Below are positions 26,819 through 32,870 of a DNA stretch of 64,000 bases, in pieces. Numbering within the stretch: the first letter of the stretch is position 1; every line of letters begins with the position of its first letter. The stretch is from Leptospiraceae bacterium (GTDB taxonomy: Bacteria; Spirochaetota; Leptospiria; Leptospirales; Leptospiraceae), in contig JAGRNF010000008.1 of the NCBI GenBank assembly GCA_020440865.1, positions 35,341 through 99,340 of the forward strand, written 5' to 3'. The notes beneath the pieces are model-generated. The model was given only the letters and a program-made list of their open reading frames with translations. It did no database searches and had not been told where the DNA came from. A program made the position numbers and the translations under genes.

Positions 26819-28732
26819 ATGACTACATCATCTTACGGCGCAGAAAAAATCAAGATCTTAGAAGGGTTGGAAGCAGTTCGGAAACGACCCGGTATGTATA
26901 TTGGAACTCAGGATGAATCCGGACTTCATAAGATGGTTTATGAAGTAGTGGACAATTCTGTCGATGAGGCTATGGCAGGGCAGTGTTCCCATATTCTCAT
27001 TAAAGTTCTACCTGACAATATTATAGAGATTTCTGATAATGGTAGAGGTATTCCCACAGGTATTCATCCTGATAAGAATGTTTCCACCATTGAAGTAGTT
27101 CTCACCATCCTCCACGCCGGGGGTAAGTTTGAAAATGATGCCTATAAAGTTTCCGGAGGACTTCATGGAGTTGGAGTCAGTGTTGTCAATGCTCTCTCCG
27201 AATGGTTAGAAGTAGAAGTTAGACAGGACAATCAGGTTTTTTATCAGAAATACACTAAGGGTATCCCGGTAAAACCTGTTGAAGTGATCGGTCCTGCCTC
27301 AATGACCGGTACTACAGTTCGATTCAAGCCGGATGCAAGTATATTTACAACCACTGAATTTCAATATGATATCTTATCATCACGATTTCGTGAAATGGCT
27401 TTCCTCAACAAAGGTCTAACCCTAAAAGTTCAGGATCTAAGAAAAGCTGAAGTTCATGAAGATGAATTCTGCTATACCGGGGGAATTGTCTCCTTTGTAG
27501 AACTCCTGAATAAAAACAAACATCCAATTCATCCTGAAGTCATACATTTTGAAAAAACGAAAGACAGTTTGATAGCCGAGATCGCTCTTCAATATGCAGA
27601 TACTTACACAGAAAATATATTTTGTTTTACTAATGCTATCAATAATACCCTGGGTGGGACCCATCTGGAAGGATTTCGAACTGCTCTAACCAGAACTTTG
27701 AATGATTACTTAAAAAAAGACAACGCACTTTCCAAAAAACACCCAAATGGATTGAGTGGTGATGACGTCAAAGAAGGATTGACCAGCGTTATCTCTATCA
27801 AAGTACCCCAACCTCAATTCAATTCTCAAACCAAAGAGAAATTGGTAAATGCTGAAGTCAAAGGACAAATGCAAACCATCGTTGGAGAAGGTCTTGCAGA
27901 CTTTTTCGAAGAAAATCCATCTGTAGTCAAAAAGATTCTCGAAAAATGTATTCTTGCAGCAAAAGCAAGAGAGGCCGCCAGAAAAGCAAGAGATCTTACA
28001 AGAAGAAAAACTGTTCTGGAAGGTGGAGGACTACCCGGAAAACTAGCTGACTGTTCAGAAAAAGACCCAACAAATTCAGAACTGTACCTGGTTGAGGGTG
28101 ATTCTGCGGGTGGATCCGCCAAGCAGGGTCGGGATAGAAATACACAAGCGATTCTACCATTGAAAGGTAAGATCCTCAACGTAGAGAAAGCTCGACTGGA
28201 TAAGATCTTATCTAATGAAGAAATTCGAACTCTAATTTCTGCTATAGGAACTGGTATTGGAGAGGATGAGTTCAATCTTGCAAAGTTAAGGTATCACAAA
28301 ATCATCATCATGACGGATGCCGATATCGATGGTTCTCACATTAGAACCTTGCTCCTCACATTCTTCTTCCGTCATATGCGTCAGATCATAGAGAAAGGTT
28401 ACCTCTACATAGCTCAACCACCGCTCTATCTTTTGAAACATGGAAAAGAAGCTACCTATGCTTACTCTGACAAAGAAAAAGATCTTTTAGTATCCAAGCT
28501 TACCAAAGACTCCAAATACATGCTTCAAAGATACAAAGGTCTCGGTGAGATGAATCCGGATCAACTTTGGGAAACTACTATGAATCCGTCAAATCGTGTG
28601 ATACTACAGGTTCGAATGGATGATTTTGTAGAAGCTGAAGAAACTTTCAATATCCTCATGGGAGATGAAGTAGCTCCAAGAAGAAGGTTCATCGAGGAAA
28701 ATGCCACTAAAGTGATGAACCTGGATCTTTAG
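26819..28732 (+). CDS. gyrB: DNA gyrase subunit B, short form without the large insert
   Basis: GHKL ATPase motifs; Toprim EGDSAGG; PLKGKILN; C-terminal tail. Placement near dnaN/recF favours GyrB over ParE, but no gyrA follows. Confidence 0.8.
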
Positions 28733-28755
28733 ATTCGGGTTTTGGCAGTTTAGAT

Positions 28756-29334
28756 TCAGGGAAGTACTTTCTTTTCAATCAAGTCCAAAGTACTTGCAGA
28801 AAATCTTAAGAAATATTTCTTTTGGTTTTCTGATCCTCCATCCATAGAATAAATCCAAATCAAATCAACCTGAATTTCTCCATCCTTAATCTTCCAGTTC
28901 TTTTTATAATCTTGAATCAAAGTGGAATTGTAATTTAATTTTTCAGTAACTGATTGATGAACTGCTCGATTTAGTTCTATTCCGGTTATCCATTTGTATC
29001 CCGGGAAAAACTTTTCAAGGCTGGATTTCTCTACCCTATAGAGAGTCTCCATATACATAGATTCATGTGAATCTCCCTTTGTGTATCCAAAGTACACATA
29101 TTGGCCATCTTCATATATGATTTCCCAGATTCGTCCCAGGATTTTTTTTATCCTATTTTCCATTCTTTTCTGGAAAAAAAAATCAGGATCTACCAACTCT
29201 GAAGTATTGATATTTTTTCCATTTTTCACTTCAGAAACCATGTACTTTTTCGAACAAGAAATCAATGTCATAATCCAGAGGAGTGGTATAATTATAAAAT
29301 ATTTCATATTCATTTTTTGAAATCTTTCATTCAA
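28756..29334 (-). CDS. hypothetical lipoprotein
   Basis: Signal peptide with lipobox LISC. Confidence 0.45.
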   Translation of the reverse strand: MNERFQKMNMKYFIIIPLLWIMTLISCSKKYMVSEVKNGKNINTSELVDPDFFFQKRMENRIKKILGRIWEIIYEDGQYVYFGYTKGDSHESMYMETLYRVEKSSLEKFFPGYKWITGIELNRAVHQSVTEKLNYNSTLIQDYKKNWKIKDGEIQVDLIWIYSMDGGSENQKKYFLRFSASTLDLIEKKVLP

Positions 29335-30656: not shown

Positions 30657-31752
30657 AATGATTCTCCTTTACCTTACCCTTATTAATTTCAAATATAGAA
30701 ATCTGGTTTCGGAAGTTTTTTAAAAAATCATCCAGACCGTCTAAATCAGTAGTTGTAAAAAAAGATTGTCCGCTTTCCATTAACAATTCCAGAAAGTAAT
30801 TTCTCCTTTTTATATCCAATTCTCGTATGACATCATCAATCAAAAGCACAGGTGTTTGATTTCTTATTTTTTTTATGTGTTTAAATTGAGCTGTTTTCAT
30901 GGCTATCACAGAACTTCTTTTTTGTCCCTGGGATCCAAATTCAGTAATATCTTTAGAATCTTTACCAATGAATAAATTGTCCCTATGAGGTCCGACTGTT
31001 GTATATCCCAATTTTAAATCCAGATGTTTTCGCTTTTGTAATTTATCCCTAAAGGATTCTTCTGAATTTACATTAGGATTGTATATGATTTCAAAAATAT
31101 CTTTCTCACCGCTTAGTATTTTGAGATTTTCCCTATAAATTTCATTGAGAGAGGCAATCACCCCGATTCTCTCTGAAATAAGAAAAATTCCTTTTTCCAC
31201 CAAAAGATTGTCCCAGGTAACCAGTTCAACTTCAGATTTAGCTTGTGATTTCAATAAAGCATTTCTATGTTTTAGTATTTTATTATATTCCAATAAATTG
31301 ATTAAATATTCACGGTTATAGATCGAAAGGAACGAATCTATAAACTTTCTCCTTTCCGCAGGACCTCCATCGATAATTTTTAAATCTATAGGGGATAGAG
31401 TAATTGTTATGAAATTTCCTATAAAATCTAATTTTCGGTTTATTTCTTTCTCGTTAAGTTTGATTTTCTTTTTCTTGGTGCCTAATTTTGTAAAGCCTAT
31501 CTCGAATTCGTCTACATCATCAGCATTCTGAATCTCTGCTTTGAGGTAATACGTATCCTTATCCCAGTTAAGTATTTCATCATCTGTATTGTCCCGAAAA
31601 CTTTTCAATGTAGAAAACATTTGAATCGCTTCCAGGAGATTTGTCTTACCTTCTCCATTCTCACCAATGAAAAAATTTAATCTGGAATTAAACTTTAATT
31701 GCACAGACTCATAATTTCTAAATGAATTGATGAGAATAGAGTTTATCTTCAT
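30643..31752 (-). CDS. recF: DNA replication and repair protein RecF
   Basis: Walker A GENGEGKTNLLEA. SMC-like signature. Overlaps dnaN by 4 bp. Confidence 0.85.
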   Translation of the reverse strand: MKINSILINSFRNYESVQLKFNSRLNFFIGENGEGKTNLLEAIQMFSTLKSFRDNTDDEILNWDKDTYYLKAEIQNADDVDEFEIGFTKLGTKKKKIKLNEKEINRKLDFIGNFITITLSPIDLKIIDGGPAERRKFIDSFLSIYNREYLINLLEYNKILKHRNALLKSQAKSEVELVTWDNLLVEKGIFLISERIGVIASLNEIYRENLKILSGEKDIFEIIYNPNVNSEESFRDKLQKRKHLDLKLGYTTVGPHRDNLFIGKDSKDITEFGSQGQKRSSVIAMKTAQFKHIKKIRNQTPVLLIDDVIRELDIKRRNYFLELLMESGQSFFTTTDLDGLDDFLKNFRNQISIFEINKGKVKENHYEFV

Positions 31753-32870
31753 AATTTCATTGGCATAACAACTGAAATATATTGTGGATCTGATGGATCT
31801 TTAAAGACAACCGGTGCATTAGAATTATTGAATTCAATTATGATTTCTTGATCTTCTATAGATTTTACTATATCTAATAAAAAATCACCTTTGAAAGCAA
31901 TAGTAGTATCTTCACCTGAATAATCCACAGGAATATTGATGTTTGCCTCAGTAGTCCCCGGAGTTGACGCATTGATATGTAAGTTATTATCATTGAATCT
32001 TAATCTTAATTGTCTGGATGGTTCTTCTGCAGCTATCAGAGCCTGACGTAGAGCTACCAAGAATTTATCTTTTGGCATCTTGATATTATTATGAGTTTCT
32101 TTGGGAATTACAGCTTCGTAGTCAGGATAATTTCCATCTATCAATTTACATAATAACTCAATCTCATTAATTTTAATATAGATTTGGTTATCAATTAAAC
32201 CTATTCTTCCTGATTCATTATGATCTATTATTTTTAAAATCTCTTTTATAGCCTTGTGAGGAATAATCACACCATTTTGAAACGGTAAGTTATTAGTAAA
32301 TTCTCTTTCTACTCTAGCTAATCTTCTACCATCTGTTCCAACTACAACTATTTTGTTTTCAAAGCTTTTGACATACAGTCCATTAAAAACAAACCTGGTG
32401 TCTTCTAGAGCAACAGAAAAAGATGTTTTCTTAATCATACTGGAGAGTGTATTACACTGAAATCCTGATGTTCTTGAATCATCTATCGTAGAGATCGTTT
32501 TGATTTCTTCTCCTCCGATTCCATTGATCATCATTTTGAAATCAACCTTGTTTTCAGCATCGGTGATTATAGTCTTAGCTGAATTTTCACCTTCATTCAC
32601 ATTTTCTAATGATGTTTCACTGAAATTAATTGCTTTCAAAATATTGCTCAACTGCTTAGCGGGAATGGATCCACTTCCAACAACATGAGTATTTGATGCT
32701 ATAGATGTTTTAATAGAGATTTCCAAATCTGTAGCTGAAATAGAAACTCTGTTTTCCTCAGCCTCCAGTTTCAAATTAGAGAGGACAGATTTTATTTCTC
32801 TAACAGTGATTACCCCTTCTACTGCAGAAATAGCTTTTTGAAAATCTCCAGTTTTGACATGGAACTTCAT
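31749..32870 (-). CDS. dnaN: DNA polymerase III beta sliding clamp
   Basis: 373 aa with the three-domain beta-clamp pattern (MKFHVKTGDFQKAI... N-terminus); operonic with recF. Confidence 0.85.
   Translation of the reverse strand: MKFHVKTGDFQKAISAVEGVITVREIKSVLSNLKLEAEENRVSISATDLEISIKTSIASNTHVVGSGSIPAKQLSNILKAINFSETSLENVNEGENSAKTIITDAENKVDFKMMINGIGGEEIKTISTIDDSRTSGFQCNTLSSMIKKTSFSVALEDTRFVFNGLYVKSFENKIVVVGTDGRRLARVEREFTNNLPFQNGVIIPHKAIKEILKIIDHNESGRIGLIDNQIYIKINEIELLCKLIDGNYPDYEAVIPKETHNNIKMPKDKFLVALRQALIAAEEPSRQLRLRFNDNNLHINASTPGTTEANINIPVDYSGEDTTIAFKGDFLLDIVKSIEDQEIIIEFNNSNAPVVFKDPSDPQYISVVMPMKL

What the first reader, a model, noticed from the sequence alone, without database searches (positions are those of the whole stretch)
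26819..32870. Rearranged replication-gene core: gyrB convergent with recF-dnaN, ruvC inserted, no gyrA
gyrB (+) faces DUF721-recF-dnaN (-) across a lipoprotein gene and ruvC. gyrB is followed 23 bp later by an opposite-strand gene rather than gyrA. This implies at least one inversion or translocation with breakpoints near 26.5-26.8 kb and 28.7-30.2 kb. Those are exactly where repeat copies A and B sit. The repeat copies may mark or mediate the rearrangement breakpoints.
Basis: partly seen in the sequence, partly recalled or inferred. Interest (0 to 1): 0.55.

Follow-up and report, generated by a model that had tools for sequence, protein, structure and literature searches.

The report
Reshuffled origin-region genes plus mobile repeats
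In this uncultured Leptospiraceae bacterium the usual dnaA-dnaN-recF-gyrB-gyrA block really is broken up, but the break-up is old and shared with relatives, and the two "breakpoint repeats" are ordinary decayed copies of a small mobile element that inserted later.

Summary
gyrB(+) 26819-28732 is followed 23 bp later by a lipoprotein-like ORF(-). Next come ruvC(+), then dciA/DUF721-recF-dnaN(-). The window holds no dnaA and no gyrA. Three independent metagenome assemblies (99.6-99.98% identical) show the same order, so it is not a chimera.

Leptospira sp. SA-E8 has the canonical co-oriented dnaA-dnaN-recF-dciA-gyrB-gyrA. All eight other Leptospiraceae lineages sampled lack a dnaA-dnaN link, a dciA-gyrB link or a gyrB-gyrA link. 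Three of them share the tail-to-tail dciA|ruvC junction. The closest relative (GyrB 90%) shares the yebC|gyrB junction and 10 kb to its left, but has no repeat there.

The repeats are two of four window copies of a ~108-nt element resembling a miniature inverted-repeat transposable element (MITE). Its ends match, at 20 of 25 bases, the end of an IS630-family insertion sequence in a relative. Copies A and B are in direct orientation and are the least similar pair (65%). They are independent later insertions and did not mediate an inversion. Only the lipoprotein|ruvC junction, where copy B sits, remains untestable.

In passing: a strand-corrected GC-skew switch, a conserved 265-bp block upstream of dnaN, and rsmG-parA-parB suggest oriC lies beside dnaN. 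Ordinary; low interest.

The parts
25765..26508 (-). yebC/TACO1-family gene. It forms the left neighbour of gyrB, and this junction is conserved in the closest relative.
   Evidence: Pfam and NCBIfam. L102 has hom(-) yebC(-)|gyrB(+) collinear with window 16.9-28.7 kb.
26617..26729 (+). Copy A of the mobile-element-like (MITE-like) repeat, ending 90 nt upstream of the gyrB ATG.
   Evidence: nhmmer E=2e-24; alignment A3. No copy at the orthologous yebC-gyrB intergenic region of L102.
26819..28732 (+). gyrB, standing alone without gyrA. If the origin is at about 33 kb, it is transcribed towards the origin (head-on with replication).
   Evidence: NCBIfam TIGR01059, 981 bits. Contexts in relatives.
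28756..29334 (-). Lipoprotein-like ORF of a fast-evolving uncharacterised family (likely start at ATG 29313 or 29307), convergent with gyrB across a 23-bp gap.
   Evidence: Translation. No Pfam or NCBIfam hit. The word-based search finds only itself. phmmer finds 87 remote representatives, the nearest at 47%; that homologue sits in an unrelated context.
29530..29638 (+). Copy B of the MITE-like repeat, ending about 14 nt upstream of the ruvC ATG (29653).
   Evidence: nhmmer E=6e-23; alignment A3.
29653..30165 (+). ruvC, convergent with dciA across a 53-bp spacer.
   Evidence: Pfam PF02075, E=5e-33. The same tail-to-tail dciA|ruvC junction, with a 9-bp overlap, occurs in L089, L090/L091 and L108.
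30219..32870 (-). dnaN-recF-dciA core unit, conserved as a block in all Leptospiraceae sampled.
   Evidence: Pfam and NCBIfam. Contexts in L009, L010, L089-L093, L107 and L108.
32871..33135 (.). Conserved non-coding block directly upstream of dnaN, a candidate oriC or dnaN control region. It is homologous to the dnaA-dnaN intergenic region of Leptospira.
   Evidence: Alignments A5 and A6; shared 9- to 11-mers. The strand-corrected GC-skew switch fits best at 33-36 kb.
6512..6628 (-). Copy C of the MITE-like repeat, in the convergent intergenic region between thyX and a hydrolase gene. No gene lies downstream of it.
   Evidence: blastn and nhmmer; Pfam hits of the neighbouring genes.
49279..49387 (-). 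Copy D of the MITE-like repeat, inside a 2.2-kb ORF-poor stretch.
   Evidence: blastn and nhmmer, E=7e-27; ORF list.

Best explanation
The window is the origin-proximal region of an uncultured Leptospiraceae chromosome (NCBI MAG, locus tags H7A24_...).

In a non-Leptospira clade of this family, the ancestral co-oriented cluster dnaA-dnaN-recF-dciA-gyrB-gyrA was broken up long ago. What stayed together is a core made of the conserved dnaN-upstream block (probably oriC), dnaN, recF and dciA. dnaA and gyrA moved elsewhere. gyrB became a solitary gene whose neighbours differ between genera. ruvC came to lie tail-to-tail with dciA in one sub-clade.

In the window's lineage gyrB is still about 1.5 kb from that core, but inverted. 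This is most simply read as retained proximity after local rearrangements, and that step is inferred.

The two repeats are unrelated to these events. They are old, diverged copies of a ~108-nt non-coding mobile element (a miniature inverted-repeat transposable element, MITE) of IS630 type. They inserted independently into AT-rich intergenic DNA upstream of gyrB and ruvC after the yebC|gyrB junction already existed. They may now contribute promoter or leader sequence to gyrB and ruvC; this is inferred and untested.
For: Shown:
- Gene identities.
- The same order in three independent assemblies.
- The canonical order in Leptospira sp. SA-E8 (mnmG(-) ilvE holB dnaA dnaN recF dciA gyrB gyrA dus) and in a Spirochaetia MAG.
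- dnaN-recF-dciA without dnaA or gyrB in L089, L090, L092, L107 and L108.
- dciA|ruvC convergent in L089, L090 and L108.
- pgk beside dnaN in L089, as in the window.
- gyrB without gyrA in four different contexts: L102, L103/L104, L105 and L109.
- L102 is collinear with window 16.9-28.7 kb and has no repeat upstream of gyrB, but has two copies downstream.

Remnants of the old neighbourhood survive. ilvE lies 2 kb from dnaN in the window and 3 kb from it in L009. holB lies 7 kb from gyrB in L103/L104.

MITE evidence:
- Four window copies with unrelated flanks, all intergenic.
- Further copies, 87-96% identical to each other, on JGI contigs with different flanks.
- End-to-end inverted-repeat pairing in the well-preserved copies: L096 fold z=-2.6 and terminal-repeat alignment score 14 against 6.4+-1.5 for shuffles.
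- The end of an IS630/DDE_3 transposase gene in L105 carries GCAATTCTTTTTGAAAATGGGTATA. This matches the MITE terminal repeat at 20 of 25 bases. It is the only non-MITE hit with 5 or fewer mismatches in about 1.7 Mb of loci.
- No Rfam family matches.
- Leptospirales are reported to carry a median of 154 MITEs per genome (PMC11602168).
- A-B identity is 65%, the lowest of all pairs.

Origin context: strand-corrected GC skew, the conserved dnaN-upstream block and rsmG-parA-parB at 50.5-52.9 kb.
Against: - No relative closer than 57% RecF identity carries the dnaN side, and the L102 contig ends 2.4 kb past gyrB. The age and mechanism of the lipoprotein|ruvC junction, where copy B sits, are therefore unknown.
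- gyrB neighbours change so often in this clade that its closeness to the core could be secondary rather than retained.
- Terminal inverted repeats are weak in the four window copies themselves: alignment scores of 5-9 against about 6 for shuffles, and fold z of -0.1 to -1.4.
- TA at both ends cannot be told apart from the element's own TATA termini.
- No clean filled-versus-empty site alignment could be made, because the intergenic DNA is too diverged.
- No parent insertion sequence was found in the window.
- There is no cluster of canonical DnaA boxes upstream of dnaN, so the oriC assignment is indirect.
Confidence: 0.75

Rival explanations
1. One reading: repeat copies A and B mark or mediated the inversion or translocation that separated gyrB from recF-dnaN.
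For: A and B lie in the two long intergenic regions that flank gyrB and the lipoprotein ORF. Copy B sits at the only junction not shared with any sampled relative. Dispersed repeats can drive rearrangements.
Against: - The left junction is present in L102 without a copy.
- A and B are direct repeats, not inverted ones.
- They are 65% identical, the least similar pair, with only a 22-nt perfect core.
- The gyrB|lipoprotein, ruvC|dciA and dnaN|pgk junctions carry no copy.
- The dciA|ruvC junction occurs in lineages that lack the element.
- Neighbouring insertions are expected by chance 30% of the time.
Confidence: 0.07
2. Composite-transposon model: A + gyrB + lipoprotein ORF + B moved as one unit into a yebC|ruvC intergenic region.
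For: Two same-orientation copies flank a 2.9-kb segment. In L102 a GNAT gene is likewise flanked by two same-orientation copies.
Against: yebC|gyrB is adjacent in L102 with no copy between them. The flanking copies are only 65% identical. yebC is not next to ruvC in L089, L090 or L108.
Confidence: 0.03
3. The repeat is primarily a functional cis-element, such as a shared promoter/operator or a small RNA gene that co-regulates gyrB and ruvC, rather than a mobile element.
For: Both copies point towards the downstream gene. A 22-24-nt core with an ACTTT-N2-AAAGT palindrome is perfectly conserved, as are a TATAAA box and GGCTAC.
Against: - Copies C and D have no downstream gene.
- The gyrB of L102 lacks the element, and L102 carries copies elsewhere.
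- There is no Rfam hit and no fold signal.
- The TTGC-N18-TATAAA reading falls below the promoter scan's threshold.
- The ends match an IS630-type insertion-sequence end.
- Secondary co-option of the element for regulation is not excluded.
Confidence: 0.1
4. Misassembly or a chimeric contig.
For: Repeats at junctions can cause assembly joins.
Against: Three assemblies from different samples and assemblers span 20.7-38.7 kb collinearly at 99.6-99.98% identity, with strain SNPs.
Confidence: 0.01

Closest known systems
Canonical bacterial origin cluster dnaA-dnaN-recF-(DciA/DUF721)-gyrB-gyrA, as in Leptospira (own knowledge: L. interrogans LIC10001-10006; seen here in L009) and Brachyspira (PMC2650404)
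   Same: dnaN-recF-dciA is intact and co-oriented. A conserved non-coding block homologous to the Leptospira dnaA-dnaN spacer is still attached to dnaN. gyrB and ilvE are still within a few kb. rsmG-parA-parB lie nearby.
   Different: dnaA, holB and gyrA are absent from the 64 kb. gyrB is inverted and is separated from dciA by ruvC and a lipoprotein ORF. pgk takes the place of dnaA.
IS630/Tc1-mariner-derived bacterial MITEs (own knowledge: RUP of Streptococcus pneumoniae, 107 nt; Correia/nemis elements of Neisseria, about 105-155 nt with TA duplication and promoter activity)
   Same: About 108 nt and non-coding. AT-rich intergenic sites. Multiple copies with unrelated flanks. TA at both ends. 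Imperfect terminal inverted repeats. Ends resemble the terminal repeat of an IS630-family insertion sequence in a related genome. Presence or absence differs between close relatives.
   Different: The window copies are old and decayed (65-79% identical, weak terminal repeats). No parent insertion sequence was found in the same genome. Target-site duplication and mobility were not shown directly.
Organisms in which gyrB and gyrA, or oriC and dnaA, are unlinked (own knowledge: E. coli has dnaA-dnaN-recF-gyrB with gyrA and oriC elsewhere)
   Same: The gyrase subunit genes are separated, and dnaA is probably unlinked from the origin.
   Different: Here gyrB is also uncoupled from recF and inverted, and the origin appears to stay with dnaN.

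Membership tests
Canonical dnaA-dnaN-recF-dciA-gyrB-gyrA cluster | dnaA immediately upstream of dnaN | tested here: not met
   pgk(+) is divergent from dnaN. tblastn with L009 DnaA finds no hit in the window.
Canonical dnaA-dnaN-recF-dciA-gyrB-gyrA cluster | dnaN-recF-dciA contiguous and co-oriented | tested here: met
   30219-32870, all on the minus strand, with overlapping or abutting ORFs.
Canonical dnaA-dnaN-recF-dciA-gyrB-gyrA cluster | gyrB co-oriented directly downstream of recF/dciA, followed by gyrA | tested here: not met
   gyrB is on the opposite strand, with ruvC and a lipoprotein ORF in between. No gyrA is present.
MITE (IS630/Tc1-mariner type) | Small, non-coding, multi-copy, with unrelated flanks | tested here: met
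   Four copies of about 108 nt in the window. Further copies on L094-L101 and L102 have different flanks.
MITE (IS630/Tc1-mariner type) | Terminal inverted repeats | tested here: inconclusive
   Clear in the consensus and in L096/L100: RNAalifold pairs columns 12-34 with 76-99, the alignment score is 13-14 against 6.5+-1.5 for shuffles, and fold z is -2.6 for L096 (-1.2 for L100). In the window copies the signal is at shuffle level.
MITE (IS630/Tc1-mariner type) | TA target-site duplication | tested here: inconclusive
   The copies begin with TA(TA)G... and end with ...GGTATA(TA). This cannot be separated from the element's own termini, and no clean empty site was found.
MITE (IS630/Tc1-mariner type) | Terminal repeats shared with an autonomous insertion sequence | tested here: met
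   The DDE_3 transposase gene at L105:1-380 ends inside GCAATTCTTTTTGAAAATGGGTATA, which matches the MITE terminal repeat at 20 of 25 bases. Only one end of that insertion sequence was visible, and it is in a relative, not in this genome.
MITE (IS630/Tc1-mariner type) | Insertion polymorphism between related genomes | tested here: met
   The yebC-gyrB spacer carries a copy in the window and none in L102. L102 has copies after gyrB and in the aminopeptidase-gltA spacer, where the window has none.
Repeat-mediated inversion | Inverted, highly similar repeat copies at both breakpoints | tested here: not met
   A and B are in direct orientation and 65% identical. Other junctions carry no copy.
Composite transposon | Near-identical flanking elements that move together with the cargo | tested here: not met
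   The flanking copies are 65% identical. L102 has yebC|gyrB without the left element.
Known structured RNA family (Rfam) | Match to a covariance model, or a stable conserved fold | tested here: not met
   No hit reaches a gathering score. The relaxed-threshold search found one chance-level snoRNA hit. The alifold energy is -4.7 kcal/mol with one covarying pair.
oriC | GC-skew switch of origin polarity | tested here: met
   The cumulative skew minimum is at about 33 kb. In the strand-corrected model the best switch is at 33-36 kb, and the residual falls from 366 to 238 for all positions and from 1130 to 641 for third codon positions.
oriC | Cluster of DnaA boxes | tested here: not met
   32871-33442 holds one TTATCCACA match with 1 mismatch and two with up to 2 mismatches, which is the background rate. 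Repeated GACATAAT and TGTNAATAA motifs are conserved, but their role is unknown.
oriC | Replication initiates there | not testable with these tools
   This needs marker-frequency analysis or DnaA ChIP.

The most novel reading that the evidence does not exclude
In this Leptospiraceae clade the replication origin has stayed with dnaN while dnaA moved away. In the window's species, decayed IS630-type MITE copies have been co-opted as the promoter or leader of two DNA-metabolism genes, gyrB and ruvC, which now sit head-on to replication within 6 kb of the origin. Copy B may also be the scar of the event that joined the gyrB block to the ruvC-dciA-recF-dnaN block.
Probability: 0.12. Interest if true: 0.35.

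Novelty: new member of a known kind. Interest (0 to 1): 0.15.

Why it matters
The practical value is as a correction. Repeats next to a synteny break are not evidence that they caused it. The origin-region gene order taken as typical for Leptospira does not hold across Leptospiraceae. Annotators who place oriC by looking for dnaA would miss it in this clade if the conserved dnaN-upstream block is the origin. The undescribed IS630-type MITE family adds one more case to a group already known to be rich in MITEs. None of this changes current understanding.

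Tried and rejected
- **Canonical DnaA boxes:** the scan (TTATCCACA with up to 1 or 2 mismatches) shows no enrichment upstream of dnaN.
- **Rfam:** the gathering-threshold search of the whole window, and relaxed-threshold searches of the repeat-bearing contigs and of 47.9-50.5 kb, found nothing credible.
- **Structured-RNA reading of the repeat:** the alifold energy is weak, with one covarying pair. Single-sequence z-scores of the window copies are -0.1 to -1.4.
- **Sigma-54 and LexA-box readings of the conserved core:** rejected by eye, because spacing and sequence do not fit.
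- **Promoter scan:** it does not list the TTGC-N18-TATAAA reading inside the element, so the promoter idea remains an inference.
- **Empty-site alignments between the window and L102:** the intergenic DNA is too diverged to define element boundaries or a target duplication.
- **Transposase in the window:** none found by tblastx. The only hit is faint, 14 aa at 48997-49038 with E=0.2.
- **Undoing inversions between copy pairs B/D, A/D or C/B on paper:** none restores dciA-gyrB adjacency, and the C/B case conflicts with L102 collinearity.
- **Ancestral yebC-ruvC pairing split by gyrB:** not supported, because yebC is not beside ruvC in L089, L090 or L108.
- **Closer relatives for the dnaN side:** none exists in the protein database. 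RecF identity jumps from 100% to 57%.

Full report
**1. The observation**

- hom(-) 24488-25765.
- yebC(-) 25765-26508.
- gyrB(+) 26819-28732. The gyrB equivalog scores 981 bits, above its cutoff, and both parE models score below theirs.
- An ORF(-) at 28756-29334 with no family hit.
- ruvC(+), ORF 29629-30165, with ATG 29653 the likely start.
- DciA/DUF721(-) 30219-30656, recF(-) 30643-31752 and dnaN(-) 31749-32870.
- Then pgk(+), ilvE(+) and lpd(+).

The gap between gyrB and the next ORF is 23 bp. That ORF begins MNMKYFIIIPLLWIMTLISC, which is a plausible lipoprotein signal. No dnaA, gyrA, holB, mnmG or dus homologue exists anywhere in the 64 kb (tblastn; Pfam on the large ORFs).

The repeat is real. 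The 22-nt core occurs twice, against zero expected, inside an 84-nt direct pair that is 73% identical.

**2. Not an artefact**

An exact-protein look-up of GyrB returned contigs from several samples and assemblers. Three of them span the whole region and are collinear with the window.
- L001 covers 20749-35594 at 99.98% identity.
- L002 covers 26698-38732 at 99.87%.
- L003 covers 23816-34619 at 99.58%, with 34 SNPs and one indel.

The database names the source a Leptospiraceae MAG.

**3. Synteny with relatives**

Leptospira sp. SA-E8 (L009, GyrB 77%) has mnmG(-) ilvE holB dnaA dnaN recF dciA gyrB gyrA dus, all co-oriented. A Spirochaetia MAG (L010) has dnaA dnaN recF gyrB gyrA. The window is therefore rearranged relative to the family's canonical order.

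The nearest RecF homologues are only 54-57% identical. Their contexts are:
- L089 and L108: (pgk(-)) EamA(-) | dnaN recF dciA | ruvC(-) hyp465(-). pgk is seen only in L089.
- L090/L091: X(-) | dnaN recF dciA | ruvC(-) lpd(-) E2 E1.
- L092/L093 and L107: MCP(-) | dnaN recF dciA followed by unrelated genes on the plus strand.

None of these has dnaA upstream of dnaN or gyrB downstream of dciA. Three lineages share the tail-to-tail dciA|ruvC junction, where the two genes overlap by 9 bp. L089 also shares pgk beside dnaN.

The nearest GyrB homologues (85-90% identical) show gyrB standing alone in four different settings:
- L102: yebC(-)|gyrB.
- L103 and L104: DegT-gyrB|FGE-sulfatase(-).
- L105: hyp(-)|gyrB|His_Phos(-).
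- L109: rluD-gyrB-M48.

gyrA never follows gyrB. The missing gyrA, the missing dnaA and the "inserted" ruvC are therefore old features of the clade, not events specific to this window.

L102, the closest relative (GyrB 90%), is collinear with window 16.9-28.7 kb at 66-78% nucleotide identity, up to the end of gyrB. The yebC|gyrB junction is thus shared. Beyond gyrB, L102 has a repeat copy, a GNAT gene, a second repeat copy, a DNA-methylase-like ORF, and then the contig ends.

What is specific to the window is the short link of lipoprotein ORF plus repeat copy B between the gyrB block and the ruvC-dciA-recF-dnaN block. The lipoprotein ORF belongs to a small, fast-evolving family. The word-based search finds only the ORF itself, and phmmer finds 87 remote representatives. 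The nearest homologue, at 47% identity, sits in an unrelated context.

Fragments of the old neighbourhood survive in different lineages. ilvE lies near dnaN in both the window and L009. holB lies 7 kb from gyrB in L103/L104. A peptidase-M3 gene and an 878-aa ORF lie near dciA in L107 and at 0.9-5.3 kb in the window. I therefore favour retained proximity of gyrB after local rearrangements. A secondary re-association cannot be excluded.

**4. What the repeats are**

A metagenome scan with the conserved core found eight short JGI contigs. Comparing them back to the window revealed two further copies.

| Copy | Coordinates | Strand |
|---|---|---|
| A | 26617-26729 | + |
| B | 29530-29638 | + |
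| C | 6628-6512 | - |
| D | 49387-49279 | - |

Copy C lies between two convergent genes, and copy D lies in an ORF-poor stretch. Neither has a gene downstream. This argues against a dedicated promoter or operator.

The element is about 108 nt long. It starts TATAGTCATTTTCAAAAGTATTTGC and ends GCAATTACTTATGAGAATTGGTATATA, and every copy has different flanks. The two ends are imperfect inverted repeats.
- RNAalifold pairs alignment columns 12-34 with columns 76-99.
- The well-preserved JGI copies fold end to end, with z=-2.6 for L096.
- Their terminal-repeat alignment scores are 13-14, against 6.5+-1.5 for shuffles.
- The window copies are decayed, and their signal is at shuffle level.

In L105, an IS630-family (DDE_3) transposase gene ends inside the sequence GCAATTCTTTTTGAAAATGGGTATA. 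This matches the element's terminal repeat at 20 of 25 bases. It was the only hit outside the repeat family with 5 or fewer mismatches in about 1.7 Mb of fetched loci.

nhmmer finds the element only in the window's species and in L102. It finds none in 275 kb from the more distant relatives. Between the window and L102 the occupied sites differ. Rfam has nothing. Leptospirales are reported to carry a median of 154 MITEs per genome (PMC11602168).

The best reading is a decayed IS630-type MITE family. It resembles RUP and Correia elements (own knowledge).

**5. Do the repeats mark or mediate the breakpoints?**

For copy A the answer is no. The junction it sits in exists in L102 without any copy.
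- A and B are direct repeats, so recombination between them would excise gyrB rather than invert it.
- A and B are the least similar pair at 65%. A-D is 79% and B-C is 73%. They are therefore not products of one duplication.
- The other junctions (gyrB|lipoprotein, ruvC|dciA, dnaN|pgk) carry no copy.
- Two of four random intergenic insertions land in neighbouring gaps 30% of the time.

Copy B cannot be tested, because no relative covers that junction.

**6. Context noticed on the way**

The cumulative GC skew reaches its minimum at about 33 kb. A model that separates coding-strand bias from replication-strand bias fits best with a switch at 33-36 kb.

The roughly 265 bp directly upstream of dnaN are conserved among genomes whose RecF proteins are only about 55% identical. 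They are homologous to the dnaA-dnaN spacer of Leptospira. rsmG-parA-parB lie at 50.5-52.9 kb.

The window is therefore the origin region, and oriC probably stayed with dnaN when dnaA left. Canonical DnaA boxes are not enriched, so this remains indirect. If it is right, gyrB and ruvC are transcribed head-on to replication.

**7. Verdict**

The gene order is real and well confirmed, but it is an old, clade-wide reshuffling of a familiar cluster. The repeats are ordinary mobile-element relics that arrived later. Any promoter role of copies A and B for gyrB and ruvC is inference only. Interest is low.

Noticed in passing
window 32871-33442 (conserved part 32871-33135): An AT-rich spacer (24% GC) upstream of dnaN contains a ~265-bp block conserved across genomes with only about 55% RecF identity. 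The block is homologous to the Leptospira dnaA-dnaN spacer and carries repeated GACATAAT and TGTNAATAA motifs. The strand-corrected GC-skew switch falls at 33-36 kb. It is a candidate oriC without an adjacent dnaA and without canonical DnaA boxes.
   Followed up: partly
window 47954-50129: A 2.2-kb stretch has no ORF longer than 71 aa and no Rfam hit. It contains MITE copy D (49279-49387) and a faint 14-aa tblastx similarity (E=0.2) to the C-terminus of an IS630 transposase at 48997-49038. It may be decayed mobile-element debris.
   Followed up: partly
window 6512-6628: MITE copy C lies between the convergent genes thyX (5596-6519) and an alpha/beta hydrolase gene (6786-7601). Its end abuts or overlaps the thyX stop codon.
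   Followed up: partly
window 50485-52933: rsmG(gidB)-parA-parB, the classical origin-proximal trio, lies 17-20 kb from dnaN. DUF327 and a peptidase-M23 gene next to it (52935-54773) are also near dnaN-recF-dciA in L092.
   Followed up: partly
L102 11920-14330: In the closest relative, gyrB is followed by a GNAT acetyltransferase gene flanked by two same-orientation MITE copies. These two copies share about 30 extra nt beyond the element. Next comes a DNA-methyltransferase-like ORF (DPFSGSGTT motif) at the contig end. The region downstream of gyrB looks like an insertion hot spot.
   Followed up: partly
L105 1-391: The 3' end of an IS630-family (DDE_3) transposase gene has its stop codon inside a terminal repeat that matches the MITE end at 20 of 25 bases. 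It is a likely relative of the parent insertion sequence. Only one end was visible.
   Followed up: partly
L094-L101 (JGI contigs Ga0169931, Ga0255280, Ga0255287, Ga0172372; L098 excluded): The same element occurs at 87-96% mutual identity (measured among L094-L097 and L100) with unrelated flanks in other metagenomes. L099 and L100 share their 5' flank, and L098 is only a chance core match. The high mutual identity suggests a recently active family in another organism, which was not identified.
   Followed up: no
L089 11514-11522, L090 9240-9248, L108 4472-4480, compared with window 30166-30218: dciA and ruvC overlap tail-to-tail by 9 bp in three relatives. In the window they are separated by a 53-bp AT-rich spacer with no terminator-like hairpin.
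   Followed up: no
window 2623-5259, 12044-13915, 44391-45602: Three large ORFs (878, 623 and 403 aa) have no Pfam match. The 878-aa ORF and its peptidase-M3 neighbour are syntenic with genes 2-7 kb from dciA in L107.
   Followed up: no
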